Positions 43,699 through 59,952 of a stretch of 64,000 nucleotides of DNA are shown one piece after another; the stretch's first letter is position 1; every line of letters starts with the position of its first letter. The position numbers and the translations under genes are program-made. Under the pieces are notes generated by a model that ran no database searches, was not told the origin of the DNA, and saw only the letters and a program-made list of their open reading frames with translations. Source of the stretch: Nitrospirota bacterium (lineage in GTDB: Bacteria > Nitrospirota > UBA9217). The stretch lies in contig OY760142.1 of the NCBI GenBank assembly GCA_963663225.1, positions 195,913 to 259,912 of the forward strand. Direction: 5' to 3'.

Positions 43699-45528
43699 AT
43701 GTGTGGTATTGTCGGATACGTTGGTAAAACTGGTTCTCTCCAGGTGCTCGTTGACGGACTTAAGCGACTTGAATACCGGGGATATGATTCAGCAGGCATA
43801 GCTTTTGTCAACGGGAATGGCCTTGAAGTGTGCAAAACCAAGGGGAAACTCAAGGATCTTCAGCGTATGCTCCCCGATCCTGCTCCTGCAGTACGAATGG
43901 GGCTTGGCCATACACGCTGGGCCACCCACGGTGGTCCTTCATCGGTCAATGCACATCCACACCGTGTTGAAGGCATTGCCGTAGTGCATAATGGAATTAT
44001 AGAAAACTACAGGGAATTGAAGACAACTTTGGAAAGCGAAGGGCATACTTTTCTCTCTGAAACAGACACTGAGGTTGTGCCGCAACTGATTGCAAAATAT
44101 ATGAACAAAGGCCTTCCGATCAGGGAAGCAATTCGGTCAGCCGTTGCTCAGCTGCACGGTTCTTATGCGCTTGGTATCATCAGCGAGCAGCATCCCAATA
44201 CCCTTTTTGCAGTAAGAAAAGGAAGCCCGCTCGTTCTTGGAATCGGCACGGATGATTTTTACTTCGCTTCCGACATTCCGGCAATCCTTCCTTACACCCG
44301 CAAATTCATATTCATGGAAGACGGACAGCTGTGCACCCTCACCGGGGAAGGAATGGATATTCGACTTGTTGAATCCGATGCCGTTGTCTCCAATTTAGGC
44401 AAGGTAATAGAGATCGACTGGACGTCCGATATGGCCGAAAAAGACGGCTATGATCACTTCATGCACAAGGAAATATACGAGCAACCCCGTGCAATCACTG
44501 CGACAATCAGCGAACGCCTACAAAGTCCTCTTAACTTTCTTTCCGAGCTTGGAATCTACGTCCAAAGAAAATCGGATGTAAAAAAGCTGCACATCGTTTC
44601 CTGCGGCACGTCGTATCACGCGGCGCTCGTCGGGAAATATATGATTGAAAATATTGTTCGCATTCCGGTAAGCGTTGATATCGCCTCGGAATATCGCTAT
44701 CGGCAGCCCATCATTGAGAAGGGTACGCTTTTTGTTGCAATCACTCAATCGGGGGAAACAGCTGATACGCTTGCGGCTCAGCGCGAAGCGAAACGTCTTG
44801 GAGCATTGACGCTCACCATCTGCAATGTCGTGGGAAGCACATCAACACGCGAAGCTGATTCGGTTCTTTACACCCGATCAGGGCCGGAAATCGGTGTCGC
44901 ATCTACGAAAACATTTACTTCGCAGATGGCGGCATTATGTGTTTTGGCTCTTGCCATGGGGTTCAAAAAATCCACGATTTCTCAGGCAGAATATGACGCG
45001 CTGAAGTCTCATCTTATTGAAATTCCCGCGCTCATAGAGAAGACATTGCAATCGGATGCAAAAATCAAGGAGCTTGCAAAAACCCTCGCGCAGGCAAAGG
45101 ATTTTTTGTATCTCGCGCGGGGAATAAACTATCCACTTGCTCTCGAAGGGGCCTTAAAATTAAAGGAAATTTCTTATATACACGCCGAGGGGTATCCGGC
45201 AGGCGAAATGAAACATGGTCCCATAGCTCTCATCGACCAGAATCTGCCGGTTGTTGTGGTCGCCTCCTCAAATGATCTTTTTGAAAAGATATTCTCCAAC
45301 ATAGAAGAAGTGAAAGCCCGGGGAGGACGGGTTGTTGCAATAACTGATATCCCCGAGGCGATGAAGGGAAAGGCTGATGATGTCATAACCGTACCATCAA
45401 CCCATCCGCTGCTTACTCCCTTTGTTAACGTAATCCCTCTCCAGCTCCTTGCATACCATATCGGCGTGCTGAGAAACTGCGATGTGGATCAGCCACGAAA
45501 CCTTGCGAAAAGCGTGACGGTTGAATAA
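43699..45528 (+). CDS. glmS: glutamine--fructose-6-phosphate aminotransferase (isomerising)
   Basis: Start ATG at 43699 preceded by AGAGGAGG RBS; N-terminal MCGIVGYVG nucleophile; two SIS domains; characteristic C-terminus AKSVTVE. Confidence 0.95.
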   Translation: MCGIVGYVGKTGSLQVLVDGLKRLEYRGYDSAGIAFVNGNGLEVCKTKGKLKDLQRMLPDPAPAVRMGLGHTRWATHGGPSSVNAHPHRVEGIAVVHNGIIENYRELKTTLESEGHTFLSETDTEVVPQLIAKYMNKGLPIREAIRSAVAQLHGSYALGIISEQHPNTLFAVRKGSPLVLGIGTDDFYFASDIPAILPYTRKFIFMEDGQLCTLTGEGMDIRLVESDAVVSNLGKVIEIDWTSDMAEKDGYDHFMHKEIYEQPRAITATISERLQSPLNFLSELGIYVQRKSDVKKLHIVSCGTSYHAALVGKYMIENIVRIPVSVDIASEYRYRQPIIEKGTLFVAITQSGETADTLAAQREAKRLGALTLTICNVVGSTSTREADSVLYTRSGPEIGVASTKTFTSQMAALCVLALAMGFKKSTISQAEYDALKSHLIEIPALIEKTLQSDAKIKELAKTLAQAKDFLYLARGINYPLALEGALKLKEISYIHAEGYPAGEMKHGPIALIDQNLPVVVVASSNDLFEKIFSNIEEVKARGGRVVAITDIPEAMKGKADDVITVPSTHPLLTPFVNVIPLQLLAYHIGVLRNCDVDQPRNLAKSVTVE

Positions 45529-48600: not shown

Positions 48601-49249
48601 CATATCCCTTCTTGGCAAGAAAATACGCGCAGGTCAGACCCGAAGGGCCACCGCCGACAACCGCGACTTTTTTGCCGTTCTTCGGAGCAAGGACGGGTTT
48701 CTCAAGCCTGTCATATTCAAGGTCGGCCACATAGCGTTTTACGAAGTTCAAAGCGGCCGGAGTATCCGTATAGTTTCTTCTGCAATTCCCCTCGCAATAC
48801 TTCACGCAAACCCTGCCGCACATGAGAGGCATCGGGTTGGTCTCCCTGATCAGTTCGAGAGCCTCTTTATATTTGCCTGCGCCTGCAAGAGCAAGATATC
48901 CCTGGATATCCACTGAAGCCGGGCATCTTGTGTTGCACGGCCCCCTGCAGTCGGCATAGTGGGTTGAAAGAATAAGCTCAAGAGCCGATTTTCTCGACGC
49001 CACCGCTGCGGGGCTGTCCGTCTCTATCTCCATACCGTCTGCAGCAGGCACGGCACAGGAGACGAGTATTTTTTTCGATTTCATTTCCTCGACTGAACAT
49101 ACAAGGCAGGAACGATGGGGCTCAAGCCGCGGCTCATAACACATGGCCGGGATATCGAAACCATTGTCCCTTGCCACCTGCAGTATGGTCTTGCCAGGTT
49201 CGGTAACTATGCTTTTTCCGTTGATTTTTATTGTAATGGTATTTGCCAT
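45698..49249 (-). CDS. multidomain iron-sulfur flavoprotein: NuoG/HydA-like N-terminus fused to GltD/NfnB-like FAD/NAD(P)H domain, with a NuoG-like C-terminal region (Stn/Nfn-type large subunit candidate)
   Basis: 1183 aa ORF; N-terminal 2Fe-2S ferredoxin cysteines (MCYEPRLEPHRSCLVCSVEE); dinucleotide motifs VAVVGGGPSGLTCAYFL and VAVVGGGNTAIDVA; several CxxCxxCxxxCP ferredoxin motifs. I could not find [FeFe]-hydrogenase H-cluster motifs. Confidence 0.7.
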   Translation of the reverse strand: MANTITIKINGKSIVTEPGKTILQVARDNGFDIPAMCYEPRLEPHRSCLVCSVEEMKSKKILVSCAVPAADGMEIETDSPAAVASRKSALELILSTHYADCRGPCNTRCPASVDIQGYLALAGAGKYKEALELIRETNPMPLMCGRVCVKYCEGNCRRNYTDTPAALNFVKRYVADLEYDRLEKPVLAPKNGKKVAVVGGGPSGLTCAYFLAKKGYEVTIFEAQPKLGGMVRYGIPEYRLPAKVLDKEVNFIISHGINVETGVKLGKDITLDELKAKGYSAVYLAIGSWVGKPMGIDGENSPFVQTGIKFLEDVKKAAVLPRLSGTVAVVGGGNTAIDVARTAVRCGADKVALLYRRTLDEMPADKEEIHDSVEEGIEFKMLTAPKRVVAENGKLIGLECFEMYLGEPDASGRRKPIQKENSEFVFKCDMIVSAIGQEADLSSLANKTFGEIKTTKWKTIDFDPKSTATNISGIFAGGDVASGPMAAIDAIGMGRKAATVIDKYISTGKIVPIHDEFVSDKAALEKLDKASFAHIEQVERSHSKKLDPAERIKTFDEVDLGVTPEIVSHEANRCLACGCVTIYDCDLKDYSTAVGAVQKAYTGKFKKSKVDDQHPYISLDPNKCVLCGRCVRYCGDLIGIHALGFINRGYSTVVKPSMDRPLAETSCISCGNCIEVCPTGAIEFNYPFKRQAPFKTTAKRSVCSDCSVACEIDINAYDRDIFYLTAKPYEKYVEGELCKKGRFESTYLKQDGRIAESYENGKGAVPIRTAIAKLTARLNDIKSKQGGDSLLFLVSPSATNEEVFLLSSIAKHYGSSNIASAEDIVRAEIPDISEMTGMNISSATREDVAKANVIINIGSGLTLNSPVFGFQVKRAVAKGAQLVQIGPLNSELEKYVSVHIDCKTGEEGQIINAILKSVISNKAFDAKAAAAIEGFEKFKSGVLKETYPKNLDKVETVAAALLDGAKNAIVLYNDTVDGANLKDIKAAVNLLLSTGRMNKANNGIAVIHKNSNSQGYRDIVFDGSTGFSSADKLKAIKESLQKGKIKAILSLNENISISDLSPKGVDFVAALSSFENDITASAEVVLPYAPNIESEGSIVSFDGKVVKFKKAFDPLQGVSNFEVLNMILQEATGKSYSMDHVRGLIAEKMPHYKGIADNAVESFSLINAARDKGLFCKKPKYDY

Positions 49250-49260
49250 GGTTTTCAGCC

Positions 49261-51030
49261 CTAATCCTTATAGATAGCGTTGAAATTGCACACCGTAAAG
49301 CATTTGCCGCACTTAACGCACTGTTCCTGGTTGACGGTATGAGGTTTCTTCCGTTCTCCCGTGATCGCCTTTGTGGGGCAATCGCGCGCGCAGAGAGTAC
49401 ACCCTGTGCACTTCTCCGGCTTAATGACGAACTTCACCAGTGCCGCGCAGGAATGCGCCGGACAAACATGGTCTCTGATATGCGCAAGATATTCATCCTT
49501 GAAGTATTTGAGCGTCGTGAGCACGGGGTTCGGCGCGGTGACTCCCAGGCCGCAGGAGGAAGACTTCCCGATATAATCAGCAAGTTCCTGAAGCTTCGCA
49601 ATGTCCTCTTCCTTGCCCTTCCCGGCAACAATGCGTTCGAGAATCTCCAGCATGCGGAGCGTTCCGATCCTGCAGGACGTGCATTTGCCGCAAGATTCGT
49701 TCTGGGTAAACTCAAGGAAGAACCGGGCCAGCTCAACCATGCAGGTATCTTCGTCCACGACGATCATGCCGCCGGAACCCATAATGGCGCCGAGCTTGGT
49801 TATTTCCTCGTAATCGATTTTCGTATTCGCGAGAGATGCCGGGATGCAGCCTCCGGAAGGGCCGCCCATCTGAACGCCCTTGAACTTTTTGCCGTTCCTG
49901 ATCCCGCCGCACACTTCATTCACAATTTCGTTAATGGTGATGCCCATCGGAACTTCAACAAGTCCGGCTTTGCTTGCCTTGCCGGCTATCGCAAACACCT
50001 TGGTGCCTTTGCTTTTCTCCGTCCCATACGCTGCATATTTTGCCGCACCGTTCAGAACAATCCACGGCACGTTGGCAAACGTCTCCACGTTGTTGATATT
50101 GGTGGGTTTGCCCCACAAACCTTTTGCCGCAGGATAGGGAGGCCGAACTTTCGGCGTGCCCCGTTTTCCCTCAATGGATGACATCAGGGCAGTCTCTTCA
50201 CCGCAGACAAAAGCACCGGCCCCTTCTTTCACCTTCAGCTTGAAGGAGAACTTGCTGCCGAAAATATTGCTGCCGAGCATGCCTTTCTTTTCGAGGATCG
50301 CAATGGACCGCTGAAGACGCCGCACTGCCATGGGATACTCTGCTCTGCAGTAGATATATCCCTCGGAAGCGCCGATGGCATATCCGCAGATCATCATGCC
50401 TTCGAGAACAGAGTGGGGATCGCCCTCCAACACGCTTCTGTCCATAAAAGCCCCGGGGTCGCCCTCGTCAGCATTGCAAATAACGTATTTTTTATCGTTC
50501 TTGGACTGGCTTGCGAATTTCCATTTCATTCCGGTGGAGAATCCTCCGCCGCCCCTTCCCCGCAGTCCCGACGCGATCATCATTTCAATAACCTGATCCG
50601 GTGTCATTTCCGTCAGGACCTTTTTAATTGCCTTGTATCCGTCCTTGCCAAAATACTCATCCAGGGAATCAGGATCAATGGTACCGCAATTGCGGAGAAC
50701 AATTTTCACCTGTTTCTTCAGGTAGTCATACTCCTGGCCTTCTTTCTTGTCCCGTATGATCACCCATTCCTCGACCGGTTTCTGGTCGGTAACGTGGCTA
50801 TCAAATATCTTTTTTGCCTTTTCCTCGGTGACGTCACCGTAAAGAAATGTCTGAGCCCCCGTACTTACTTCGACCAAAGGCTCCCGATAGCACATGCCGA
50901 CGCAGCCGGTTGCAGAGACCGCAACTGATGATTTAGGAGCATTCCCCGACAAATTCGTTAAAGCATCAAAAACCTTTTGCGCTCCTGCCGAGACGCCGCA
51001 GGTAGCCATTCCAACAGTAATATTTATCAC
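49261..51030 (-). CDS. NuoF/HndC/HydB-like NADH-binding FMN iron-sulfur subunit
   Basis: 589 aa ORF; N-terminal thioredoxin-like 2Fe-2S region; GLRGRGGGGFSTGMKW (NADH/FMN site); ESCGKCTSCR (4Fe-4S); C-terminal two ferredoxin motifs (CTGCTLCARDCP, CVKCGKCFTVC). Confidence 0.85.
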   Translation of the reverse strand: MINITVGMATCGVSAGAQKVFDALTNLSGNAPKSSVAVSATGCVGMCYREPLVEVSTGAQTFLYGDVTEEKAKKIFDSHVTDQKPVEEWVIIRDKKEGQEYDYLKKQVKIVLRNCGTIDPDSLDEYFGKDGYKAIKKVLTEMTPDQVIEMMIASGLRGRGGGGFSTGMKWKFASQSKNDKKYVICNADEGDPGAFMDRSVLEGDPHSVLEGMMICGYAIGASEGYIYCRAEYPMAVRRLQRSIAILEKKGMLGSNIFGSKFSFKLKVKEGAGAFVCGEETALMSSIEGKRGTPKVRPPYPAAKGLWGKPTNINNVETFANVPWIVLNGAAKYAAYGTEKSKGTKVFAIAGKASKAGLVEVPMGITINEIVNEVCGGIRNGKKFKGVQMGGPSGGCIPASLANTKIDYEEITKLGAIMGSGGMIVVDEDTCMVELARFFLEFTQNESCGKCTSCRIGTLRMLEILERIVAGKGKEEDIAKLQELADYIGKSSSCGLGVTAPNPVLTTLKYFKDEYLAHIRDHVCPAHSCAALVKFVIKPEKCTGCTLCARDCPTKAITGERKKPHTVNQEQCVKCGKCFTVCNFNAIYKD

Positions 51031-51043
51031 GGTTAACCTCGCC

Positions 51044-51601
51044 TCAATTCCGCGCTTTGCGCTGATATTCCTTCAACAGCTTCCGTACACTCTGGGCTGT
51101 CAGCTTTCCATGCACATCCTCGTTGATGAAAATAACCGGCCCGATACTGCAGCAACCGAGACATGCGACCGTCTCAACGGTAAACAAACCGTCATTTGAC
51201 GTATCAGAGGAGTCGTCCAGCTTGAGTTCTTCTTTAATAACATTAAGAAGCATGGTCGAATCGTTAACATGACAGGCCGTTCCATCACAAACCTTGAGAA
51301 GATTTTTTCCCGGCGGCTTCAGCCGGAACTGCTTATAAAATGTCACGACGCTGTAAATGTCGCTTTCAGCAGCGCCAGTCAACTGGCTGATTTCATGGAT
51401 AGATTCTTCAGGAACGTATCCGTTCTCCACCTGCACCTTCTGCAGAAGTGGAATAACGTCACTTTTGCTTGCCCCTTTTGCAGCAACTTCAGGGGGGAAA
51501 AACTTAAACGTCGCGTTCTTGAGCACCCTCTGCCTCCTTAAACTCTGCGATTTCGTACCCGAACGATCACGATAGTGCATTTCGTGACGTTGCAAACTCA
51601 T
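51044..51601 (-). CDS. NuoE/HndA/HydC-like thioredoxin-fold [2Fe-2S] subunit
   Basis: 185 aa ORF; cluster-binding cysteines in CDGTACHV and CLGCCSIGPV. Start may be later than the ORF-track start. Confidence 0.8.
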   Translation of the reverse strand: MSLQRHEMHYRDRSGTKSQSLRRQRVLKNATFKFFPPEVAAKGASKSDVIPLLQKVQVENGYVPEESIHEISQLTGAAESDIYSVVTFYKQFRLKPPGKNLLKVCDGTACHVNDSTMLLNVIKEELKLDDSSDTSNDGLFTVETVACLGCCSIGPVIFINEDVHGKLTAQSVRKLLKEYQRKARN

Positions 51602-51776
51602 TATTTTAACCTTTTTATACCCTTTTTACAAGAAAACTTTTCGGATAAGAGCAAACGGAAAATGCACCGATAAGAATTATATAATGAAAAACCCTGCTGC
51701 AGTGCTGTCTTCCTGGTAAAAACACTTATGCAATTTCCGCTGTTGCTTACAACAAGCAAAATGCAGAAAACAATTC

Positions 51777-51823
51777 AAAAAAAAGGAGCGCCCCCCGGCT
51801 AAATTCCGCAGGGGTAGCGCTCC
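51777..51823 (-). terminator. putative intrinsic terminator downstream of the malic enzyme gene
   Basis: Imperfect GC-rich hairpin (GGAGCGCCCC ... GGGGTAGCGCTCC). An A8 run on the plus strand gives a U-run after the hairpin on the minus strand, about 100 nt past the stop at 51922. Confidence 0.5.
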
Positions 51824-51921
51824 CGGTCTATAGTCGCTACTCACAACAGTGCATGTTTGTTAACCAGCTGTAAAGAACATATCCACGCAATCGCGAATAG
51901 ATCGGATGTGGCGCAGGTTCC

Positions 51922-53241
51922 TTAGAGCTGATGTTTGTAGGATTTCACGAACGCACTCATACGATCGCGAGCGTCGAATACGCGTTTGCGCAGGTCTTTT
52001 GCATACTGATCCAAGTCAAGTTTAACCGTGGCAACGCCTTCATCCATGGCTGCCTTGGCAACCGCAACCGGCTCGAGGTCGATCAGACGGGTATCAAGCG
52101 CCTTCGGGATGATGTAGTCCAGACCATAGGTCAGCGACTTCACATTATACGCATCACAAACTTCCTGCGGTACCGGCTTTTTGGCCAGGTCAGCGATAGC
52201 TTGCGCTGCAGCTTTCTTCATATTTTCGGTGATTGCAGTTGCGCCGCAGTCCAGAGCTCCGCGGAAGATATAGGGGAACCCGGAAACGTTGTTCACCTGG
52301 TTCGGGAAGTCAGAACGGCCCGTTCCCATGATCAGGTCCGGACGAGCTGCCTTTGCATCGGGATACGGAATTTCCGGATCAGGGTTCGCCATGGCGAACA
52401 TGATCGGATTTTTGGCCATGCTCTTAACCATTGCAGGAGATACAAGGTTCGCCTGCGAAAGGCCGAGGAACATGTCTGCGCCCTTGAATGCTTCTTCAAG
52501 CGATGAGAAAGCCTTTTTCTGGGCAAACAGCTTTTTGTACTCGTTGAGGTCGGTACGACCCGCATGAATATGGCCTTTGGTGTCGAACAGGGAGATGTTT
52601 TCCTGAGGAACACCGAGCAAAACATAGAATTTGCAGCAGGCAATACCGGCAGCACCGGCGCCCGAGCAGACCACTCTCATGTCAGAGGCTTTCTTGCCTG
52701 AAATATCGATGGCATTGATCAAGCCTGCACCGGAGATGATCGCCGTACCATGCTGGTCATCATGGAATACCGGTATTTTCATGATCTTTTTCAGTTTTTC
52801 TTCAATATAGAAGCAATCGGGTGCGCCGATGTCTTCGAGATTGATGCCGCCAAAAGTCGGCTCTAATGCCTTCACAATTTCAATGATTTTATCCGGATCC
52901 TTGACATCAAGATTGATATCATAGGAATCAATGTCCGAGAAAATCTTGAACAAGATTCCCTTGCCTTCCATGACCGGCTTTGCAGCTGCTGGGCCGAGGT
53001 TTCCAAGTCCCAGGATGGCGGTACCGTTGGTGACAATTGCCACCAGGTTGCCCTTACCTGTGTACTTGTAAACATCTGCGGGATTTGCCGCAATTGCGCG
53101 GCAAGCGTCAGCAACACCTGGCGAGTAGGCCGTTGCCAGATCCTTCTGGGTAAAGTAGGGCTTTGTCGGAATGACTGTGCATTTCCCCGGAGGAAACACA
53201 TTATGATACTTCAATGCTTCTTCTTTCGTTACCAGTGCCAT
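51922..53241 (-). CDS. malic enzyme (NAD(P)-dependent malate dehydrogenase, decarboxylating; short type without PTA domain)
   Basis: 439 aa ORF; AAGGAGG RBS; malic-enzyme N-terminus [13 protein letters not shown] and dinucleotide-binding [12 protein letters not shown]. Confidence 0.9.
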
Positions 53242-53364
53242 TTTACTACCTCCTTTTGTCTATAAAGTTATTTCCCGGCATTTTTACTTCAAATTCTATC
53301 ACGGCATATTGTTTTTAGGGATACAACTGGATCCTGCAACTGTACAAATACTCATGCTGCAAAA

Positions 53365-53380
53365 AGCAAGGAACATGCCA
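53365..53380 (-). promoter_or_regulatory. sigma-54 (-24/-12) promoter upstream of the malic enzyme gene
   Basis: Minus-strand reading TGGCATG-TTCC-TTGCT versus consensus TGGCACG-N4-TTGCW (11 of 12 positions, correct GG-N10-GC spacing), about 124 nt upstream of the ATG and adjacent to a sigma-54 activator gene. Confidence 0.5.
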
Positions 53381-53673
53381 ATTATTATAATGGTATATAG
53401 GACTTATTTTACAGAGGATTAGCTGTTTTTAGAATAACTTCACGCTTGTTTCTGAATATAACGAAACTCATGGATGTGATTCGAAAAAAACTATAATTTT
53501 ATTATTTACAGCAAGATATGAACTATAATAAAAATTATAGGCCATAACTTTTTATACTGATTATTTATTATATATTTTTTACCTGCCCCACAGGGATGTG
53601 TTTCACCTTTATAAAGCGGCCTATCATAGCACAAATCACTTTTTTAGCAATAAAAAAAGCAGAGAGCCTGACA

Positions 53674-55098
53674 TTATTCTTCGCTCGAAGTTTCCTGCTG
53701 CTGTTTAAGGCGCTTGCTCAGCGCTGGCTGCGATATGCCCAAAAATCGGCTTGCCACAGACTGATTCCCTCTCGCACGCTTCATGGCTTCCGCAATGAGA
53801 AGCCCCACGGTCTGCTGAATGGAAGGCAGAGTTTCCACACTTTCGAAGATATTCGCGGAATCAGCATGAAAACGCGAAGGGGTCCGGTCATGTGAAGCAC
53901 TTATCTTTTTAAATTGTTTGGTTGAAACAGTGCCCGAGGCGGACTGAGCAACGGCGTCGAACACCATCGAACGCAGTTCCCGGATATTGCCCGGGAAATT
54001 ATACTGTTCAAGAAGCGGGACCAGATCAAAGGCATAATTCAGCTTGTCCTTTCCGAGAGAACGGGCCGCTTCCTCCAGAAAATAATCGAGCAGCAGCGGG
54101 ATGTCTTCCTTTCGATCGCGAAGCGGAGGCAGGTGTATATGGTGCGTGTGCAAACGGAAAAAAAGGTCCTTTCGCAATTCTCCCCGCGCCTGTTTTTCAG
54201 TAAGGTTCTGGTTCGTGGAAGCGATAACGCGCGCATTCAACCGTTTCGGCCTGTCGCTGCCTAAGGGAAAGTAATCTCCCTCCTGAAGAAGACGCAGAAG
54301 CTTCACCTGCGATGCATTGTTCAGGTCGCCTATTTCGTCCAAAAAAAGAGTCCCCAGGGCCGCCTGTTCCACCATGCCGCTTCTCGGCTGGTCCGCGCCG
54401 GTAAAGGCGCCTTTTACGTGTCCAAACAAGGTATCGGTAAACATGGCATCATCAAGTCCTCCCACATTCACCGATACCAGCGAACCCTTGCAGCCGCTTA
54501 AGGTATGGACTGCATTGACGATGAGCCCTTTTCCCACGCCGCTTTCACCCGTAACCAGCAGCGGCTGGCTGCTTTTGGCTACCGCTTCCACGTATTGGAA
54601 AATCGTTTTCATCGTTTTATTCAGCGTAATGATGCCTTCAAACGCGTGGGGATCCCGGAGTGAATCCGACAGAAAACTCCTGGTCATCTCGCGGTTCTCC
54701 GAACGCATTTCTATGATTTTTATCGCATGCTGGATTGCGGTAATAATCCGGCATTCTTCGGCAGTCTTGACCATATAATCGAAAGCGCCGTGTTTCATGC
54801 AGGTGACCGCGGTCTCGAGCTGGCTTATGCCGCTGCAGACAATCACTATTATCTCGGGGAACTGTTCGTTTATCAGTTTCAGAAGTTCTTCTCCCGAGAG
54901 GTTGGGCATCGTGAGATCCAGCAGCACAATGCCGATCTCCTGCTGGGCCAGTATCTCTAAAACATCACGGCTGTCCTGGCAGGACATCACATTGGTGATG
55001 CCTGCATGCCTCTCAAGGGACATGCGCATGGATCGGATCCATGCCTGCTCATCATCCACGATCAGGATGCGAAATGACGGATACCCTGCTGCACTCAT
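53674..55098 (-). CDS. sigma-54-dependent response regulator (NtrC family: receiver + AAA+ sigma-54 activation domain + HTH)
   Basis: Start placed at ATG forming an ATGA overlap with the kinase stop; receiver ILIVDDE...LLDLTMP; Walker A GESGVGKG; GAFTGA motif; C-terminal HTH (RARGNQSVASRFLGISQPALSKRLK). Confidence 0.85.
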   Translation of the reverse strand: MSAAGYPSFRILIVDDEQAWIRSMRMSLERHAGITNVMSCQDSRDVLEILAQQEIGIVLLDLTMPNLSGEELLKLINEQFPEIIVIVCSGISQLETAVTCMKHGAFDYMVKTAEECRIITAIQHAIKIIEMRSENREMTRSFLSDSLRDPHAFEGIITLNKTMKTIFQYVEAVAKSSQPLLVTGESGVGKGLIVNAVHTLSGCKGSLVSVNVGGLDDAMFTDTLFGHVKGAFTGADQPRSGMVEQAALGTLFLDEIGDLNNASQVKLLRLLQEGDYFPLGSDRPKRLNARVIASTNQNLTEKQARGELRKDLFFRLHTHHIHLPPLRDRKEDIPLLLDYFLEEAARSLGKDKLNYAFDLVPLLEQYNFPGNIRELRSMVFDAVAQSASGTVSTKQFKKISASHDRTPSRFHADSANIFESVETLPSIQQTVGLLIAEAMKRARGNQSVASRFLGISQPALSKRLKQQQETSSEE

Positions 55099-56906
55099 GC
55101 CTGAACCTCCCATTCTGCCACAGGCAGTTTGATAATTACGGTTGCTCCCTCGCCGGGCTTGGAATTAAAACTGAGCGTTCCCCCATGCTCCTTCACAATT
55201 CCCGCGGAGATCGCAAGCCCGAGACCCGTTCCGCCGCTGTCCCTCTTGGTGGTAAAAAAGGGATCGGTCACGCGGTTCAGATGTTCCGGCGGAATGCCGA
55301 TTCCATCGTCGTGCACCCTGATGATAATCGTCCCGACTTCACGCTCATATGAGGTCATGACAAATATCCCTTTGTCGACAAACGGCAAGCCGGGAAACGA
55401 GCTCATAATATCTACCGAAGGCTGTGGCGTGCGCTCCGGCTTCTGCCGGTTGGCGCTCTCAACGGCCTGCGCCGCATTCAACACAAGGTTTACAATCACC
55501 TGTTCGAGCCGGTGCGGATTGCCCTTGATCAAAGGAAGCGGTTCCGTGCAATAAACAGCGCAGTGGATGGCCGAGCTTTTCAACGAGTGTTCCAGCAGCC
55601 GGACGGAAGTCCGCACCACATTGTTCACGTCGAACAGCTCCTTGGAATTGGAATCGTTTTTCCGCGAAAAGTGCTTGAGATCGTCGACAATGCGCTTGAT
55701 GCGCTTTACCGCAACCTGCATCTCGTCAAGAAGCTGGGGAAGTTCCTTGCGCATCCGTGAATACGGCAGACCACCCATTAAAAATTCCCCGTGTTCACGG
55801 TAATAAGCATCAAGAATCGGGTCGGCATCTTTGATGACCTCGCTGACCAGCGGCAAATTAAAAAGAAGCAGACCGTTCGGATTGTTGATTTCATGGGCCA
55901 CGCTCGAGACAAGAACACCCAGGGCAGCCATCTTATCGGCCTGGATCAACCGCTGGTGCTGAAGCCTCAGCTCTTCATCCATGCGTTTGCGTTCTTCCAC
56001 CTCGCGGTTCAGGGCAGCGGTCCTGGCGGCAACCCGCATCTTCAGCAGTCTGGACCAAATAATGGACGCAAGAAGGCCGAAAATAAGCGCGGAAACAATG
56101 TACATGTTGTATTTTTTCAGCCATTTCCAGGAAGCATACTCTGTATCCACATTTCCCAGCCATTTTTCCTGCAGTTCCTGATACCGGCCCGTCTCTTTGA
56201 GAAATGCCAGCCCTTCATTGAATTTTTCCAATGTAGCCAGGTTCCCTTTTCTGAAGGCAAAGCAGTACTTGCTGGTATCGATATTCTTGGCAACCAGTTC
56301 TACGTTTGTGATCTTTAAATCGGTAATCAGATATGTTGCCTGAAGCGTTTCCAGCACGGCATAGTCATGTTTAGCCGAGGCAAGCATCTTCACTGCCTCC
56401 GCAATGGACGAAACAGTGACTATCTGAATTTGGCTCCATGCCGCCCGGGAGTAATCGTGTTTTCCATCCAGGCTCACAAGAACGACTTTCTTTCCGCGGA
56501 GATCATCAAGGGATGAAACCGGAGATGCGTCTGTTCTGGCGAAGATGGAATGAGAAATTGCGGAATGCGGCGAAGAAAGGTCCAGGATATGCGCCCGTTC
56601 TTCCGAAAAGGGAAGGCCTTCGATAACATCAATACGGCCGGTTTCCACATCCCTGAATATCGTGGACCATGATTTTTCCAGCTTAAACGTGACTTCAACG
56701 TCCATGGTCTCGGCTATGGCTTTTGTCAACTCCACAATGAAACCGGCGGGCTTGCCATCTCTGTCAATGAACTCATACGGTGGATGGGCGCTGTTGCCGC
56801 CTACAACGATCATGTGTTTGGAGTTATCGGTGTTCTCCGCGGCCAGAGTCTGAGCATGGAGAGCTGGTAATAACAGCAGCAGACAGATGAAGGCTCTCAC
56901 CATCAT
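55095..56906 (-). CDS. sensor histidine kinase with N-terminal periplasmic solute-binding (SBP type 3-like) domain
   Basis: 603 aa ORF; signal peptide; periplasmic domain about 230 aa; one TM helix; HisKA H-box (LVSSVAHEINNP); HATPase motifs (HDDGIGIP, GGTGLGLAI). Confidence 0.8.
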   Translation of the reverse strand: MMVRAFICLLLLLPALHAQTLAAENTDNSKHMIVVGGNSAHPPYEFIDRDGKPAGFIVELTKAIAETMDVEVTFKLEKSWSTIFRDVETGRIDVIEGLPFSEERAHILDLSSPHSAISHSIFARTDASPVSSLDDLRGKKVVLVSLDGKHDYSRAAWSQIQIVTVSSIAEAVKMLASAKHDYAVLETLQATYLITDLKITNVELVAKNIDTSKYCFAFRKGNLATLEKFNEGLAFLKETGRYQELQEKWLGNVDTEYASWKWLKKYNMYIVSALIFGLLASIIWSRLLKMRVAARTAALNREVEERKRMDEELRLQHQRLIQADKMAALGVLVSSVAHEINNPNGLLLFNLPLVSEVIKDADPILDAYYREHGEFLMGGLPYSRMRKELPQLLDEMQVAVKRIKRIVDDLKHFSRKNDSNSKELFDVNNVVRTSVRLLEHSLKSSAIHCAVYCTEPLPLIKGNPHRLEQVIVNLVLNAAQAVESANRQKPERTPQPSVDIMSSFPGLPFVDKGIFVMTSYEREVGTIIIRVHDDGIGIPPEHLNRVTDPFFTTKRDSGGTGLGLAISAGIVKEHGGTLSFNSKPGEGATVIIKLPVAEWEVQA

Positions 56907-57394
56907 AGTGATTTAGCTTGCCTCTGGGATTGGTGGGGTTTTACGAATAACATAATTTGTGTAACTTACTGCATTATAAGGAGAAAGTCAAGCAACATAT
57001 GAGTTTTTGCCTGTTAAGAACAAAAAAACCGCTGCCTTCATCTTTGTATTGACAAACCCGGCCCGTTGAGAGCAAATTCTTCATACGATTTGACATAATA
57101 CAGGTGTGCAATTGTAAAAAAAGGGCTGCCGTAACCAGCAGGGTAACCATCCCTAAAGGGCTCCACGCTCGCCTCATCAAAGACGCCACACAACTGCGTT
57201 TCTCCTAAAAAAGCTATTCCATACATTGCATATTAGCCGTAGCATGACGACTATTCCGAATTTTGAATATTAGTCATTTAAATATGCTTTTAAATTCAGT
57301 CGGATACAGCAAATTCTTTCTTAAATTCATTGGCCATCATTTCAATTATATGCTATATTTCCCGAAGAACTAATATCTGGTTAGTCTAACTGAA

Positions 57395-58072
57395 ATGGCG
57401 AAAAACGATTTATACATATCCCCTTTTGAAGGCAAAACACCCGAAGAACGTTTTGTAGCCTATATTGATATTCTTGGCTTTGGTAAAGAAGTAAACGATA
57501 ACTTAGAAGCTGCCATAGACGTTTATGAAGATTTGATTGGTCATTGTCATTTATTAGGTCGCCTAGTAAATCTGTCAATCTATTCCGATTCAATTATTCT
57601 GCAATCTGCAAAATTGATTGACGTCGCATATGTAGCGACAATGGTTCAATTTATTGCTCTTACACGAAATTATCTGGTACGAGGAGGCATCGCGGTCGGG
57701 AAGCATCTTGAATCGAGGCAAAATGGAAATTTATTCGTGGTCAGCAAAGCATTAGTAAAAGCTGTAAAACAGGAGAAGCTAAATCAAACCCAAGAGACAC
57801 CGTGTATTACCCTTCATCATGAAATAAATCCAGTTCCGTCGGTCGTATTAAATGATCCTGCACGCATTGTTGTTGAATACAAGGGACAAAACATTGTTAA
57901 TCCTTTCAATCCCCACATGGAATCAAGCCAAAGAGATGGAATACATTCTCAACTAATTGAACTACGTGACAGATGTCCCGAGAAGGACCAACCGAAATAC
58001 ACTTGGTATATAGAATTGATGGATTTCATTCTAAGAACATATGGGGAAAGTGGACGACAGCGGCCAAATTAG
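57395..58072 (+). CDS. hypothetical protein with minimal nucleotide-cyclase-like palm domain (class III cyclase / GGDEF / Cas10-palm superfamily-like)
   Basis: 225 aa ORF in a low-GC stretch. FVAYIDILGFGK resembles the cyclase metal-binding motif FADIVGFT, with a second Asp about 40 residues later (SIYSDSIIL) and RGGIAVGKH resembling RIGIHTG. Assignment rests on motif resemblance only. Confidence 0.45.
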   Translation: MAKNDLYISPFEGKTPEERFVAYIDILGFGKEVNDNLEAAIDVYEDLIGHCHLLGRLVNLSIYSDSIILQSAKLIDVAYVATMVQFIALTRNYLVRGGIAVGKHLESRQNGNLFVVSKALVKAVKQEKLNQTQETPCITLHHEINPVPSVVLNDPARIVVEYKGQNIVNPFNPHMESSQRDGIHSQLIELRDRCPEKDQPKYTWYIELMDFILRTYGESGRQRPN

Positions 58073-58156
58073 ATATACCAACAACACCGGCGAGAGGGAC
58101 AGAGAATCACGCCCTCCTCATGGCGGCGTTAGCGGAATATTCTGGTAATCAATCGC

Positions 58157-58975
58157 ATGACTATACCATACATAAAACAATATGAAACCCAATTACATTC
58201 GCGACATTATATTCGAAATGCGACTGCTGCAAATTATTGGTATGATTTTTCTGCAAATCGTGTATCCACTTATGTTAATAATTACCATGACGATTTCTGC
58301 ATGGTTATCAATGGCTCAGAAACTGAGAACGACGCCTATGTCTTGCCATATAAAGTCTTTAAAGGTTTTTTTACTGAAGATTACCTTGATCACCGAAACC
58401 GTTGGAATGGTACCATCAAAGACAATATCATCAAACTCACATTGACAGCGAATAACAAGCCAAACAAATATCTATCCGTTGGTGCTTTTTATAATGCCTT
58501 TTCATTTCTCGTCTCAAACCTGCCCGATGAGAATGAAATTCATGTAGTAACGACAGATAGCTTAGAAATCAATCTTTCAAATCTGCAGAAACTGATTCAG
58601 GAGTTTAACGAGCATTACTCAAGTATTGCTCCGGAAAAGCGGATTACCGTATCGGAACGAATCGCGAGACCCAATGCAATCACAGATTATATTAAGAAAA
58701 TTCAAAAATTTACTTGCCAGATATGCAAGCTTCCCGGCTTTCAACAAAAAAACGGTTCCAAATATATCGAAGCCCATCACATCATAGAACTGCATGACTT
58801 AATTCCAGGATCATACTGCTCTGACAACATCATTACAGCCTGCCCAACTTGTCATAGGAAGCTACATTACGCATCTGTATTGTACCAGACTCAAAACGAG
58901 CAAATAGTATCTGTCATTATTAATGGCCAAGCTTATTCTTTTCAAAGAAATGTTATTTCTGAAAAAGTAAAGTAG
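58157..58975 (+). CDS. HNH-endonuclease-domain protein with N-terminal domain of unknown function
   Basis: 272 aa ORF; C-terminal HNH/zinc-finger motif CQICKLPGF...YIEAHHIIELHDL...CPTCHRKLHY; the N-terminal 190 aa have no motif I can assign. Confidence 0.6.
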   Translation: MTIPYIKQYETQLHSRHYIRNATAANYWYDFSANRVSTYVNNYHDDFCMVINGSETENDAYVLPYKVFKGFFTEDYLDHRNRWNGTIKDNIIKLTLTANNKPNKYLSVGAFYNAFSFLVSNLPDENEIHVVTTDSLEINLSNLQKLIQEFNEHYSSIAPEKRITVSERIARPNAITDYIKKIQKFTCQICKLPGFQQKNGSKYIEAHHIIELHDLIPGSYCSDNIITACPTCHRKLHYASVLYQTQNEQIVSVIINGQAYSFQRNVISEKVK

Positions 58976-58992
58976 GGCCTAACGTGTCGTTC

Positions 58993-59159
58993 GAGTCCCG
59001 CGCTCAAGCAGCGCGGGGCTCAACTCGTCGTTCTCCCCTCGCTTCGCAAACGAGGGGAGAATCCCGGGGCTGAGCCTAAGCCCCATCCCCTTGCAAAAAC
59101 GCTCGGGGAGAACCAGGGGCTCGAAACCTACCGCTAACGCGGAGGCTCAGCCCCGGGAT
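58993..59159. repeat. GC-rich cluster of nested hairpins / inverted repeats downstream of the HNH gene
   Basis: Hairpin 58993-59021 (GAGTCCCGCGC/GCGCGGGGCTC, one mismatch); perfect 10-bp hairpin 59032-59060 (TCTCCCCTCG/CGAGGGGAGA); 16-bp inverted repeat pair ATCCCGGGGCTGAGCC (59061-59076) and GGCTCAGCCCCGGGAT (59144-59159). Confidence 0.6.
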
Positions 59160-59205
59160 TAGTCCATGACAGAAGCTATTCACACCCGTAAGGAGACTTT
59201 TCACA

Positions 59206-59952
59206 GTGGACATCCCACGGATATTCAACATTACTGAAAGTGCTCACCGCATCCACAACCCGTTCACAGCCGAAAAGCTCGCCACTCTCGGCGCGGCGCT
59301 GCGTCTGGAATCGGGAGCCCGAGTGCTCGACCTCGGCAGCGGTTCTGGAGAGATGCTGTGTACCTGGGCACGCGATCACGGCGTCATCGGCACCGGCATC
59401 GACATGAGCAAGTTATTCACCGAGCAAGCGAAACTCCGTGCTGAAGAACTCGGCGTCGCCCATCAAGTCAAGTTCATCCATGGCGATGCTGCCGGCTATG
59501 TCTCTGACGAGAAGGTCGATGTGGCAGCCTGTCTCGGTGCCACTTGGATCGCCGGGGGATTCACGGGCACTATCGAACTTCTGGCGCGGAGCCTGCGCAC
59601 CGGAGGGATCATCCTCATCGGCGAGCCCTACTGGCGGCAGTTACCGCCGACGGAAGATGTTGCCAAGGGGTGTCTTGCCAACTCAATCTCCGACTTTCTC
59701 ATGCTTCCAGAACTTCTCGCGTCTTTCGGCCACCTTGGCTACGATGTCGTTGAAATGGTTCTGGCTGACCAAGACGGCTGGGACAGATACGAGGCGGCCA
59801 AATGGCTCACCATGCGCCGATGGCTTGAAGCCAATCCCGACGACGAGTTAGCGAAAGATGTTCGAGCCAAACTGACCTCGGAACCCGAGCGCTACGCCGC
59901 TTACACGCGTGAATACCTGGGCTGGGGTGTGTTCGCGCTGATGCCGCGGTGA
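59206..59952 (+). CDS. class I SAM-dependent methyltransferase
   Basis: 248 aa ORF with GTG start preceded by AAGGAGA RBS; motif I VLDLGSGSGEM. GC-rich coding sequence (by eye). Confidence 0.75.
   Translation: MDIPRIFNITESAHRIHNPFTAEKLATLGAALRLESGARVLDLGSGSGEMLCTWARDHGVIGTGIDMSKLFTEQAKLRAEELGVAHQVKFIHGDAAGYVSDEKVDVAACLGATWIAGGFTGTIELLARSLRTGGIILIGEPYWRQLPPTEDVAKGCLANSISDFLMLPELLASFGHLGYDVVEMVLADQDGWDRYEAAKWLTMRRWLEANPDDELAKDVRAKLTSEPERYAAYTREYLGWGVFALMPR

What the first reader, a model, noticed from the sequence alone, without database searches (positions are those of the whole stretch)
51922..56906. Near-consensus sigma-54 promoter on the malic enzyme gene, next to a sigma-54 activator and solute-binding-domain kinase
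TGGCATG-N4-TTGCT lies about 124 nt upstream of the malic enzyme start, and the adjacent genes encode an NtrC-type activator (GAFTGA present) and a histidine kinase with a periplasmic solute-binding domain. The simplest reading is a ligand-sensing circuit, perhaps for a C4-dicarboxylate or amino acid, driving malic enzyme. The adjacent NADPH-linked redox operon makes this a possible redox-balancing regulon.
Basis: partly seen in the sequence, partly recalled or inferred. Interest (0 to 1): 0.45.

Follow-up and report, generated by a model that had tools for sequence, protein, structure and literature searches.

The report
Dicarboxylate-type sigma-54 switch driving malic enzyme
The malic enzyme gene has a real sigma-54 promoter with conserved binding sites for the neighbouring activator, which belongs to a widespread but functionally uncharacterised sensor-regulator family that elsewhere sits next to C4-dicarboxylate transport and breakdown genes.

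Summary
TGGCATGTTCCTTGCT (53365-53380, minus strand) is the only exact TGGCAY-N5-TTGCW match in the 64 kb window. It lies 124 nt upstream of a 439-aa malic enzyme gene and downstream of an overlapping kinase/activator gene pair.

The regulatory reading is supported by comparison with related loci. Ten activator orthologs share an invariant DNA-binding helix. Downstream of most of them lies a sigma-54-like promoter preceded by the palindrome TATAAY-N4/5-RTTATA. The window has a perfect copy centred 152.5 nt upstream of the -24 GG and a weaker copy at 85.5 nt. One relative has almost the same offsets, and others place the proximal site similarly.

The genes driven in relatives are dcuB, dctA-type symporters, a DctP TRAP subunit, aspartate ammonia-lyase and succinate dehydrogenase/fumarate reductase. 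The signal is therefore most likely a C4-dicarboxylate, or aspartate. This is inferred, not shown.

The sensor domain is homologous to Geobacter HK29s (PDB 3H7M), which was crystallised closed with no ligand bound. Malic enzyme is a lineage-specific addition: homologs at 68% identity or less have no such promoter.

The proposed redox regulon with the adjacent StnABC-like transhydrogenase is not supported, because a strong terminator separates the two. This is an ordinary architecture with a moderately new regulon assignment.

The parts
55095..56906 (-). Sensor histidine kinase (603 aa). It has a signal-peptide-like N-terminus, a single periplasmic SBP_bac_3 (Venus-flytrap) domain, a transmembrane segment, a coiled coil, an H-box (AHEINNP) and HATPase_c.
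   Evidence: Pfam; translation. The sensor domain matches PDB 3H7M (Geobacter sulfurreducens HK29s) at E 3e-57 over residues 30-253. More than 2600 homologs were found.
53674..55113 (-). NtrC-type sigma-54 activator / response regulator (479 aa; the true start may be the ATG at 55098, which overlaps the kinase stop codon). Domains: REC, AAA+ with GAFTGA, and a Fis-type HTH.
   Evidence: Pfam; translation. The HTH region 'NQS.A...G.SQPALSKRLK' is invariant in 10 orthologs. It is the only GAFTGA protein in the window.
53524..53539 (.). Distal upstream activator site: the perfect palindrome TATAAT-TTTT-ATTATA, centred 152.5 nt upstream of the -24 GG.
   Evidence: Only exact TATAAY-N4-RTTATA match in the window. 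The same motif lies at -153.5 in L001, -141.5 in L086 and -181.5 in L005. It is invariant in near-identical loci and aligned across three different cargo genes.
53457..53472 (-). Proximal upstream activator site CATGAG-TTTC-GTTATA. The right half is perfect and the left half degenerate. It is centred 85.5 nt upstream of the -24 GG and 67 bp from the distal site.
   Evidence: Proximal sites fall at -85.5 (L001), -83.5 (L005), -86.5 (L006) and -74.5 (L086). The 67-68 bp spacing between sites recurs in L001 and L086. The site sits in an invariant block among close relatives.
53365..53380 (-). Sigma-54 promoter TGGCATGTTCCTTGCT. The -24 GG is at 53379/53378 and the -12 GC at 53367/53366. The predicted transcription start is near 53354.
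   Evidence: Invariant in L087-L089. Homologous promoters TGGCATACTC(T/C)TTGCT occur in L001 and L086. The start site is inferred from the usual spacing and is not mapped.
53242..53354 (-). Predicted 5' leader of about 113 nt, with GGAGG (53249-53253) 7 nt before the ATG. No stable structure.
   Evidence: Fold gives -13.6 kcal/mol against -20.1 for shuffles (z +2.0). No Rfam family matched anywhere in the window.
51922..53241 (-). Short-type malic enzyme (439 aa), the gene driven by the promoter.
   Evidence: Pfam malic + Malic_M. The best NCBIfam match is NADP-dependent malic enzyme, N-terminal part only and below the cut-off. The closest solved structures are NADP-dependent MaeB malic-enzyme domains, E 5e-152.
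51776..51824 (-). Intrinsic terminator after malic enzyme: hairpin 51784-51824 followed by U8 at 51776-51783. It makes the malic enzyme gene a single-gene transcription unit.
   Evidence: -28.6 kcal/mol, z -3.86, and none of 200 shuffles fold as well. Sequence shown.

Best explanation
**What it is.** The kinase (55095-56906) and activator (53674-55113) form a two-component system of the HK29 type. This type pairs a single periplasmic Venus-flytrap sensor kinase with an NtrC-family enhancer-binding protein.

**How it most likely works.** Phosphorylated activator binds two sites of the form TATAAY-N4-RTTATA, at 53524-53539 and 53457-53472. It contacts sigma-54 RNA polymerase held at TGGCATGTTCCTTGCT (53365-53380). 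Using ATP, it opens the promoter, giving a single-gene malic enzyme transcript that ends at the terminator at 51776-51824.

**Likely signal.** The signal is most likely an extracytoplasmic C4-dicarboxylate (malate, fumarate or succinate) or aspartate. The cell would then make malic enzyme (malate to pyruvate + CO2 + NAD(P)H) when such substrates are available.

**Shown here:** the sequence elements, the domain content, and the conservation of the sites, their positions and the activator's DNA-binding helix.

**Inferred:** binding, phosphotransfer, sigma-54 dependence, the transcription start, the identity of the ligand, and whether the ligand switches the kinase on or off.
For: 1. **Promoter.** It is the unique exact consensus match in 64 kb, intergenic, correctly oriented and the top-scoring site.
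2. **Regulators.** The adjacent activator has every module of an NtrC-type EBP, including GAFTGA, and is the only EBP in the window.
3. **Promoters next to orthologs.** A sigma-54-like promoter on the same strand lies downstream of orthologous kinase/activator pairs (kinase 40-59% identical) in L001, L004, L005, L006, L007, L086, L090, L172 and L173.
4. **Shared upstream motif.** The palindrome built on TATAAC/GTTATA lies upstream of those promoters.
   - There are 10 exact hits in 0.24 Mb of family loci, all within 200 nt upstream of the promoter, against 5 in 1.78 Mb of unrelated loci.
   - Offsets are -152.5/-85.5 in the window and -153.5/-85.5 in L001.
5. **Same DNA-binding helix.** The activator HTH region is invariant in all 10 orthologs, so the same DNA specificity is expected.
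6. **Aligned regulatory regions.** The window, L001 and L086 regions align through both sites and the promoter, although they precede malic enzyme, sdhC and dctP respectively.
7. **Ligand class from the driven genes.**
   - DcuB (L172; L173, Geotalea sp. SG265).
   - DctA, above the NCBIfam cut-off (L090).
   - SDF symporters (L004-L007).
   - DctP TRAP subunit (L086).
   - AspA, above the equivalog cut-off (L006).
   - sdh/frd (L001).
8. **Experimental precedent.** In G. sulfurreducens the dcuB promoter was shown by primer extension to be RpoN-type, and an EBP gene lies upstream of dcuB (PMC2725144).
Against: - There are no expression, binding or start-site data for this locus.
- The proximal site matches only 13 of 16 positions.
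- No IHF-like site lies between the sites and the promoter in the window, although four relatives have one at -28 to -30.
- rpoN itself is not in the window, so its presence in the genome is inferred from the EBP.
- There is no terminator between the activator gene and the promoter, so read-through from the kinase/activator operon could give sigma-54-independent expression.
- A sigma-70-like element with an extended -10 (53650 to 53623) is conserved in close relatives.
- **Ligand.** SBP_bac_3 domains usually bind amino acids. HK29s crystallised closed with no ligand bound (PMC4352136).
- The window kinase and its 85% relative differ from their subgroup at several conserved sensor positions: H41, L98-P99-F100, E186 and Q189. 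Its ligand may therefore differ from that of its relatives.
- Some orthologs (L003, L008, L085) have no recognisable adjacent target.
Confidence: 0.72

Rival explanations
1. The circuit is as described, but the sensor detects an amino acid (aspartate or glutamate, or another polar amino acid) rather than a non-amino C4-dicarboxylate. Malic enzyme would then be the end of an aspartate-to-fumarate-to-malate-to-pyruvate route.
For: - SBP_bac_3 is the polar amino-acid binding fold. After HK29s, the next-best PDB matches to the sensor domain are glutamine, arginine and other amino-acid binders.
- In two gammaproteobacteria the driven genes include aspartate ammonia-lyase.
- The window kinase has Glu186 at the position aligned with an Asp of AncQR ('VVTDN'). 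From memory, this Asp corresponds to the one that binds the alpha-amino group in amino-acid binding proteins.
- The carboxylate-binding Arg (R104) is invariant in the family.
Against: - Nearly all other family members have Ala at position 186, including those next to aspA.
- Most driven genes are dicarboxylate-specific: DcuB, DctA above its cut-off, DctP, sdh/frd and malic enzyme.
- No glutamate or aspartate ABC transporter of the aat type is adjacent in any locus.
Confidence: 0.2
2. Malic enzyme and the downstream StnABC-like transhydrogenase form one sigma-54-controlled redox-balancing unit: NADPH from malic enzyme feeds NADPH-dependent reduction of NAD+ and ferredoxin.
For: - The genes are adjacent, on the same strand and 320 bp apart.
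- The order kinase-activator-malic enzyme-stnABC is kept in three near-identical contigs.
- The 1183-aa protein matches StnC over its full length (8OH5_C, E 3.9e-201). Stn uses NADPH (PMC10482914).
- The malic enzyme is closest to NADP-dependent enzymes.
Against: - A strong terminator (-28.6 kcal/mol, U8) lies between the two.
- There is no sigma-54-like site or UAS motif in 51602-51921.
- A sigma-70-like element precedes stnA (51631 to 51603).
- The adjacency is seen only in genomes more than 90% identical, so it carries little evolutionary weight.
- Orthologous two-component systems elsewhere never sit next to stn genes.
Confidence: 0.1
3. The sigma-54-like motif is not the working promoter. 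Malic enzyme is instead transcribed by sigma-70 polymerase, either by read-through from the kinase/activator operon or from the TTGCTA-N16-TGcTATGAT element at 53650-53623, and the two-component system regulates genes elsewhere.
For: - No terminator was found between the activator stop codon and the malic enzyme gene.
- The sigma-70-like element has an extended -10 and is conserved in close relatives.
- Malic enzyme homologs in other lineages have no sigma-54 promoter.
Against: - The sigma-70 scan found fewer sites than shuffles give: 6 against 7.6 expected.
- That element is not present at the corresponding place in L086 or L001.
- The sigma-54 promoter and both activator sites are conserved in sequence and position across loci whose kinases are only 58-59% identical. 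Chance does not explain this.
Confidence: 0.06

Closest known systems
DctB/DctD of rhizobia and pseudomonads (sigma-54-dependent C4-dicarboxylate two-component system activating dctA)
   Same: - A membrane kinase with a periplasmic sensor paired with an NtrC-type activator.
- Tandem upstream activator sites and a -24/-12 promoter.
- In relatives the driven gene is dctA itself (L090) or other C4-dicarboxylate genes.
- The kinase has an 'AHEINNP' H-box; from memory this resembles the DctB-type transmitter, which was not compared here.
   Different: - The sensor is a single SBP_bac_3 / Venus-flytrap domain, not the tandem PDC/Cache fold of DctB.
- The binding motif found here is TATAAY-N4-RTTATA; it was not compared with the DctD binding site.
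- In the window the driven gene is a catabolic enzyme (malic enzyme), not a transporter.
- No ligand data exist.
HK29 of Geobacter sulfurreducens (sensor domain structure PDB 3H7M)
   Same: - The sensor domains are homologous along their whole length (E 3e-57, about 50% identity).
- The overall kinase architecture is the same.
- The closest full-length homolog of HK29s in my set (P0085, 72% identity) is followed by the same type of activator, a TATAAC/GTTATA site, a sigma-54-like promoter and dcuB.
   Different: - Papers citing HK29s describe a closed domain with no bound ligand and mention neither a ligand nor target genes (PMC4352136, PMC5431781); the original structure paper was not read.
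- The window protein belongs to a different subgroup ('GGNSAYPPYEF') and deviates further at conserved sensor positions.
- I could not confirm which G. sulfurreducens locus encodes HK29.
RpoN-dependent dcuB promoter of Geobacter sulfurreducens (Leang et al. 2009, PMC2725144)
   Same: - An experimentally mapped -24/-12 promoter on a C4-dicarboxylate gene with an EBP gene upstream.
- The arrangement matches L172 and L173.
   Different: - That paper did not name the EBP, its kinase or a binding motif.
- Orthology to the family described here is inferred from synteny in other Geobacteraceae, not verified.
MalK/MalR (YufL/YufM) of Bacillus subtilis and DcuS/DcuR of E. coli (recalled from memory, not checked here)
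   Same: Two-component systems that sense external malate or C4-dicarboxylates and induce catabolic and transport genes. MalKR induces a malic enzyme gene (maeA).
   Different: They use CitA/DcuS-type PAS/PDC sensors, non-sigma-54 response regulators and sigma-70-type promoters.
AauS/AauR of Pseudomonas (acidic amino-acid sensing, sigma-54 EBP)
   Same: A kinase paired with a sigma-54 EBP responding to aspartate and glutamate. It controls uptake genes through a conserved palindromic motif (PMC7386598).
   Different: The AauS periplasmic domain is described as DctB-like, and a separate binding protein (AatJ) takes part. Here the binding-protein fold is fused into the kinase.
BvgS of Bordetella (Venus-flytrap sensor kinase)
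   Same: Periplasmic Venus-flytrap domain(s) of the same fold fused to a histidine kinase. HK29 is described as a BvgS homolog whose domain is closed without a ligand (PMC4352136).
   Different: BvgS has tandem flytrap domains, a PAS domain and a phosphorelay, and its partner BvgA is not a sigma-54 activator. BvgS is on by default and switched off by modulators. Whether that applies here is unknown.

Membership tests
Sigma-54 (-24/-12) promoter | GG and GC dinucleotides 10 nt apart within TGGCAC-N5-TTGCW, upstream of a gene and in its orientation | tested here: met
   TGGCATGTTCCTTGCT at 53365-53380(-). It is the unique exact match and the top-scoring site in the window.
Sigma-54 (-24/-12) promoter | Transcription starts about 12 nt downstream of the GC and depends on rpoN and an EBP | not testable with these tools
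   No expression data are available and rpoN is not in the window.
NtrC-family response regulator / enhancer-binding protein | Receiver domain with a phospho-acceptor Asp, AAA+ sigma-54 interaction domain with Walker A and GAFTGA, and a C-terminal Fis-type HTH | tested here: met
   Pfam REC, Sigma54_activat, AAA_lid_14 and HTH_8. DD...D66...K116, GESGVGKG and GAFTGA are seen in the translation. No NCBIfam equivalog reaches its cut-off, so this is not a named subfamily.
NtrC-family response regulator / enhancer-binding protein | Cognate palindromic upstream activator sites about 80-200 bp upstream of the promoter | tested here: met
   Sites at 53524-53539 and 53457-53472. Motif and positions are conserved in orthologous loci. 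Physical binding was not tested.
DctB/DctD C4-dicarboxylate system | Kinase sensor is a tandem PDC (double Cache) periplasmic domain | tested here: not met
   The sensor is SBP_bac_3. Its best structural homolog is 3H7M, and all other sensor-domain matches are periplasmic binding proteins.
DctB/DctD C4-dicarboxylate system | Activates a sigma-54 promoter of C4-dicarboxylate transport genes | tested here: inconclusive
   Met by context in relatives: DctA in L090, DcuB in L172 and L173, DctP in L086. In the window the driven gene is malic enzyme, and no transporter gene is adjacent.
DctB/DctD C4-dicarboxylate system | Sensor binds succinate, malate or fumarate | not testable with these tools
   Requires biochemistry.
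HK29-type Venus-flytrap sensor kinases (PDB 3H7M) | A single periplasmic SBP_bac_3 domain homologous to HK29s between two membrane segments, followed by a DHp/H-box and HATPase_c | tested here: met
   E 3e-57 over residues 30-253 of the query and 10-232 of the 234-residue chain. Architecture. Family alignment has 62% mean column identity.
Malic enzyme (short, MaeB-N-terminal type) | Malic N-terminal domain plus the NAD(P)-binding Malic_M domain, with no PTA-like C-terminal domain | tested here: met
   Pfam. The protein is 439 aa and matches positions 7-434 of the 764-position NADP-malic enzyme model. PDB matches.
Malic enzyme (short, MaeB-N-terminal type) | NADP rather than NAD specificity | tested here: inconclusive
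   The closest solved relatives are NADP-dependent (E 5e-152), but NAD-dependent relatives also match (E 4e-99). Specificity residues were not analysed.
StnABC electron-bifurcating transhydrogenase (neighbouring operon, context only) | NuoE-like StnA, NuoF-like StnB, and StnC as a fusion of an N-terminal 2Fe-2S domain, a GltD/NfnB-like domain and a NuoG/FdhF-like domain of about 1170 aa | tested here: met
   Pfam and NCBIfam. The 1183-aa protein matches 8OH5_C (1172 aa) over its full length at E 3.9e-201. Architecture as described in PMC10482914. Activity was not tested.

The most novel reading that the evidence does not exclude
The HK29-type kinase/activator pair may be a widespread and so far uncharacterised counterpart of DctB/DctD. 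In it, a binding-protein fold fused to the kinase would sense C4-dicarboxylates.

Its cognate cassette of two activator sites plus a sigma-54 promoter stays with the regulator genes, while different genes have been placed behind it in different lineages: dcuB, dctA, dctP, aspA, sdh/frd and, here, malic enzyme.

In the window lineage the sensor has also changed at conserved positions (H41, L98-P99-F100, E186, Q189). This may have retuned it to a different ligand, such as malate or an amino-dicarboxylate, in step with the new target gene.
Probability: 0.4. Interest if true: 0.5.

Novelty: new variant of a known kind. Interest (0 to 1): 0.36.

Why it matters
**A testable ligand class for a solved sensor.** HK29s (PDB 3H7M) was solved in 2009, and the papers I could search that cite it name no ligand and no regulon. 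The comparison here proposes a ligand class (C4-dicarboxylates or aspartate), a DNA-binding motif (TATAAY-N4/5-RTTATA) and a set of target genes. These can be checked by ITC on the sensor domain, by gel shifts and by reporter fusions.

**A possible link to Geobacter fumarate respiration.** It suggests which regulator lies behind the RpoN-dependent dcuB promoter that makes rpoN essential for fumarate respiration in Geobacter sulfurreducens.

**Sigma-54 control of malic enzyme.** I found no report of this in the searched literature.

**A regulatory cassette kept across different target genes.** Related loci keep the same cassette in front of different target genes.

None of this overturns current understanding. 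It extends a well-known regulatory pattern to a different sensor module.

Tried and rejected
1. **Exact-sequence look-ups.** Look-ups of the window's malic enzyme and kinase found no contig on record. Near-identical contigs were reached through cluster members instead.
2. **Genome-collection scan.** It returned only relatives at 44% identity or less, and 74 of the 80 loci were unrelated kinases. The source organism could not be named.
3. **Search with the HK29s sequence.** It returned only fragments and not the G. sulfurreducens protein, so the HK29-to-dcuB link rests on the 72%-identical P0085.
4. **Metagenome scan with malic enzyme.** Homologs at 68% identity or less have no sigma-54 promoter, UAS or adjacent EBP. 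The one EBP found upstream (L109, L122) is separated from the malic enzyme gene by another ORF, has no sigma-54-like site within 500 nt upstream of it, and looked to me like a PilS/PilR-type cluster, though no domain search was run.
5. **Riboswitch or attenuator in the leader: rejected.** Rfam found nothing and the leader folds worse than shuffles.
6. **IHF site between enhancer and promoter.** None within one mismatch in the window, although four relatives have one.
7. **Direct repeat in the leader (53265-53310).** One copy varies among close relatives, so it was not pursued.
8. **Autoregulation.** There is no UAS or sigma-54-like site upstream of the kinase gene.
9. **Named subfamilies.** AtoC, NtrC, ZraR, GlrR, PgtA and others all score far below their NCBIfam cut-offs.
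10. **Literature.** No paper in the searchable library describes this family's regulon or sigma-54 control of malic enzyme. The library excludes most subscription journals, including the original HK29s paper.

Full report
**1. The observation**

On the minus strand the window carries three genes in order: a 603-aa kinase (56906 to 55095), a 479-aa activator (55113 to 53674) and, after a 432-bp spacer, a 439-aa malic enzyme (53241 to 51922).

The sequence TGGCATGTTCCTTGCT occupies 53380 to 53365. Its last base is 124 nt from the ATG.
- It is the only exact match to TGGCAY-N5-TTGCW in 64 kb on either strand. Shuffles give 0.19 matches expected per window.
- It is the highest-scoring site in a weighted -24/-12 scan.

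Pfam confirms the gene identities.
- Malic enzyme: malic + Malic_M.
- Activator: REC, Sigma54_activat, AAA_lid_14 and HTH_8. GAFTGA and Walker A are visible in the translation.
- Kinase: SBP_bac_3 (33-251) + HATPase_c. It also has a signal-peptide-like N-terminus, a hydrophobic segment near 265-287 and an AHEINNP H-box.

**2. Is the promoter tied to the neighbouring activator?**

- Within the spacer, the repeat finder reported a palindrome around 53523-53540.
- Three near-identical contigs (L087-L089, proteins more than 90% identical) have the same gene order. Their spacer is 93% identical, which is too close to be informative. Even so, the promoter, the palindrome region and a block around 53450-53475 are invariant, while neighbouring stretches vary.

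The useful comparisons are more distant. I collected kinase/activator pairs whose kinases are 40-64% identical to the window's.
- In nine of them a sigma-54-like promoter lies downstream of the activator gene on the same strand.
- Upstream of those promoters there is a shared palindrome built on the half-site TATAAC/GTTATA, usually TATAAY-N4-RTTATA. The spacer is N5 in two Geobacteraceae loci, and an N10 arrangement occurs in three others.
- The window has one exact copy, TATAATTTTTATTATA at 53524-53539. It is the only exact match in the window.
- The window also has a weaker copy, CATGAGTTTCGTTATA at 53457-53472.

Positions are conserved.

| Locus | Distal site (nt upstream of the -24 GG) | Proximal site |
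|---|---|---|
| Window | 152.5 | 85.5 |
| L001 | 153.5 | 85.5 |
| L005 | 181.5 and 163.5 | 83.5 |
| L006 | about 166 | 86.5 |
| L086 | 141.5 | 74.5 |

Further support:
- Across all fetched DNA, exact matches number 10 in 0.24 Mb of family loci, every one within 200 nt upstream of the promoter. There are 5 in 1.78 Mb of unrelated loci.
- The activators' HTH region (NQS.A...G.SQPALSKRLK) is invariant in all ten orthologs aligned. Proteins that recognise the same DNA sequence would be expected to show this.
- The regulatory regions of the window, L001 and L086 align through both sites and the promoter. They precede three different genes: malic enzyme, sdhC and dctP.

I regard the link from activator to promoter as well supported by sequence, though not demonstrated.

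**3. What the system senses**

The genes behind the conserved promoter in relatives are listed below.

| Locus | Source | Gene(s) driven |
|---|---|---|
| L173, L172 | Geotalea sp. SG265; a metagenome contig | DcuB-family transporter |
| L090 | MAG assembly GCA_009787515.1, taxon not given | DctA (722.8 bits, cut-off 513) |
| L004 | Geomonas propionica | SDF symporter |
| L005 | Oceanospirillaceae MAG | SDF symporter |
| L006 | Photobacterium halotolerans | SDF symporter + aspartate ammonia-lyase (827.8 bits, cut-off 681.2) |
| L007 | Motiliproteus coralliicola | Aspartate ammonia-lyase + SDF symporter |
| L086 | MAG | DctP TRAP binding subunit |
| L001, L002 | Metagenome | Succinate dehydrogenase / fumarate reductase, followed by an SDF symporter |

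All of these handle fumarate, succinate, malate or aspartate. Malic enzyme fits the same theme. I therefore infer a C4-dicarboxylate-class signal, with aspartate as the main alternative.

The sensor domain itself does not settle the question.
- It is homologous along its whole length to HK29s of Geobacter sulfurreducens (PDB 3H7M; E 3e-57).
- Later papers describe HK29s as a closed Venus-flytrap domain with no bound ligand (PMC4352136; PMC5431781).
- The family keeps the Arg that binds a carboxylate in amino-acid binding proteins (R104).
- It has Ala where AncQR has the aligned Asp, which from memory is the residue that binds the alpha-amino group in amino-acid binders. The window kinase and its 85% relative have Glu there.
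- These two also differ from their subgroup at H41, L98-P99-F100 and Q189.

The window's ligand may therefore not be the same as its relatives'.

**4. Link to experimental work**

In G. sulfurreducens the dcuB promoter was shown by primer extension to be RpoN-type, and an EBP gene lies upstream of dcuB (PMC2725144). The paper names neither the EBP nor a binding site.

The closest full-length homolog of HK29s in my set (P0085, 72% identity) is followed by the same type of activator, a TATAAC/GTTATA site, a sigma-54-like promoter and dcuB. HK29 and its partner are thus probably the dcuB regulators in Geobacter. I could not retrieve the G. sulfurreducens locus to confirm this.

**5. Malic enzyme is a lineage-specific target**

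Malic enzyme homologs at 42-68% identity from metagenomes show no sigma-54 promoter, no UAS and no adjacent EBP. The one upstream EBP found is separated from the malic enzyme gene by another ORF, has no sigma-54-like site upstream of it, and looks like a PilS/PilR-type cluster (not domain-checked).

Orthologous two-component systems at 58-64% kinase identity are followed by other genes. So the regulator-plus-promoter cassette is old, and its connection to malic enzyme is recent.

**6. Limits of the transcription unit**

- The predicted leader of about 113 nt is unstructured (z +2.0). No Rfam family matches anywhere in the window.
- About 100 nt after the malic enzyme stop codon there is a strong terminator: hairpin 51784-51824 and U8. 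It folds at -28.6 kcal/mol, z -3.86.
- The next operon (51601 to 45698) encodes NuoE-like and NuoF-like proteins and a 1183-aa protein that matches StnC over its full length (8OH5_C, E 3.9e-201). Its architecture matches that described for the Stn transhydrogenase (PMC10482914).
- That operon has no sigma-54 or UAS motif upstream.
- A metabolic connection is plausible, since malic enzyme makes NADPH and Stn uses it. Co-regulation is not indicated by the sequence.

**7. Caveats**

- No terminator separates the activator gene from the promoter, so basal read-through is possible.
- A sigma-70-like element at 53650-53623 is conserved among close relatives, but it is absent at the equivalent place in L086 and L001.
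- The window lacks the IHF-like site that four relatives have just upstream of the promoter.
- rpoN is not in the window.
- The source organism could not be named. Related kinases carry labels from Geobacteraceae, Desulfuromonadales, Dissulfurispiraceae and Thermodesulfovibrionales.

**8. Comparison with known systems, and verdict**

Functionally this resembles DctB/DctD. It is not a member of that family, because the sensor fold differs (tested, not met). It is a member of the HK29-type kinase family and of the NtrC-type EBPs. No NCBIfam equivalog names either protein. I found no paper describing the family's regulon, or a sigma-54-driven malic enzyme, within a library that omits most subscription journals.

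The architecture is conventional. What is new is the family-level regulon and motif assignment, plus the addition of malic enzyme as a target. Interest is moderate-low at 0.36.

Noticed in passing
window 45698-51601 (-): A three-gene operon encoding a NuoE-like protein (185 aa), a NuoF-like protein (589 aa) and a 1183-aa fusion of a 2Fe-2S domain, a GltD/NfnB-like domain and a NuoG/FdhF-like domain. The large protein matches StnC of the Sporomusa-type electron-bifurcating transhydrogenase over its full length (8OH5_C, E 3.9e-201; also 9BOV_A, E 1.8e-227). It lies outside the acetogens in which Stn was first described.
   Followed up: partly
window 51776-51824 (-): A strong intrinsic terminator (nested GC-rich hairpin plus U8; -28.6 kcal/mol, z -3.9) after malic enzyme. 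The simple scan reported only the inner part of it.
   Followed up: yes
window 55095-56906 (-), sensor residues 41, 98-100, 186, 189: The window kinase and its 85%-identical relative P0002 differ from the otherwise well-conserved subgroup consensus. They have H41 for Y, L-P-F for I-S-Y, E186 for A, and Q189 for P. This hints at a change of ligand specificity in this lineage.
   Followed up: partly
window 57395-59952 (+) compared with L087 3165-7521: The segment next to the kinase gene differs between the window and a relative whose kinase, activator and malic enzyme are more than 90% identical. The window has a 225-aa protein of unknown function and an HNH endonuclease gene (58157-58975). L087 has RDD, HEPN_Swt1, DUF5343, an outer-membrane beta-barrel and YbbD_head genes. 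This looks like a variable spot, possibly defence- or mobile-element-related.
   Followed up: no
window 57126-57141 (-): A terminator-like hairpin followed by a T-run (CTGCTGGTTACGGCAG CCCTTTTTTT) on the minus strand. It lies in the spacer upstream of the kinase gene, where no upstream minus-strand gene is evident.
   Followed up: no
window 1-42700 (-), and 43615-45528 (+): A long same-strand cluster that looks like exopolysaccharide biosynthesis: a Polysacc_synt flippase, asparagine synthase, three AMP-binding ligases and an AAA_22 protein. It is followed by glmS. glmS and glmU also lie near the orthologous kinase/activator pairs in L001 and L086, which suggests remnant synteny.
   Followed up: no
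L090 6861-8208: In this MAG contig (GCA_009787515.1) the activator is called as two ORFs, with REC separate from AAA+/HTH. This is either a frameshift or assembly error, or a split regulator.
   Followed up: no
L005, L006, L007, L086: 28-30 nt upstream of the TGG of the promoter: IHF-like sites (WATCAANNNNTTR with one mismatch) sit at a fixed offset just upstream of the -24 element in four relatives. The window has none. This is unusually close to the promoter for an IHF site.
   Followed up: partly
window 53623-53650 (-): A sigma-70-like element with an extended -10 (TTGCTA-N16-TGcTATGAT) lies immediately after the activator stop codon. It is conserved in the near-identical contigs but not in L001 or L086. 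It could give a long-leader basal transcript of malic enzyme.
   Followed up: partly
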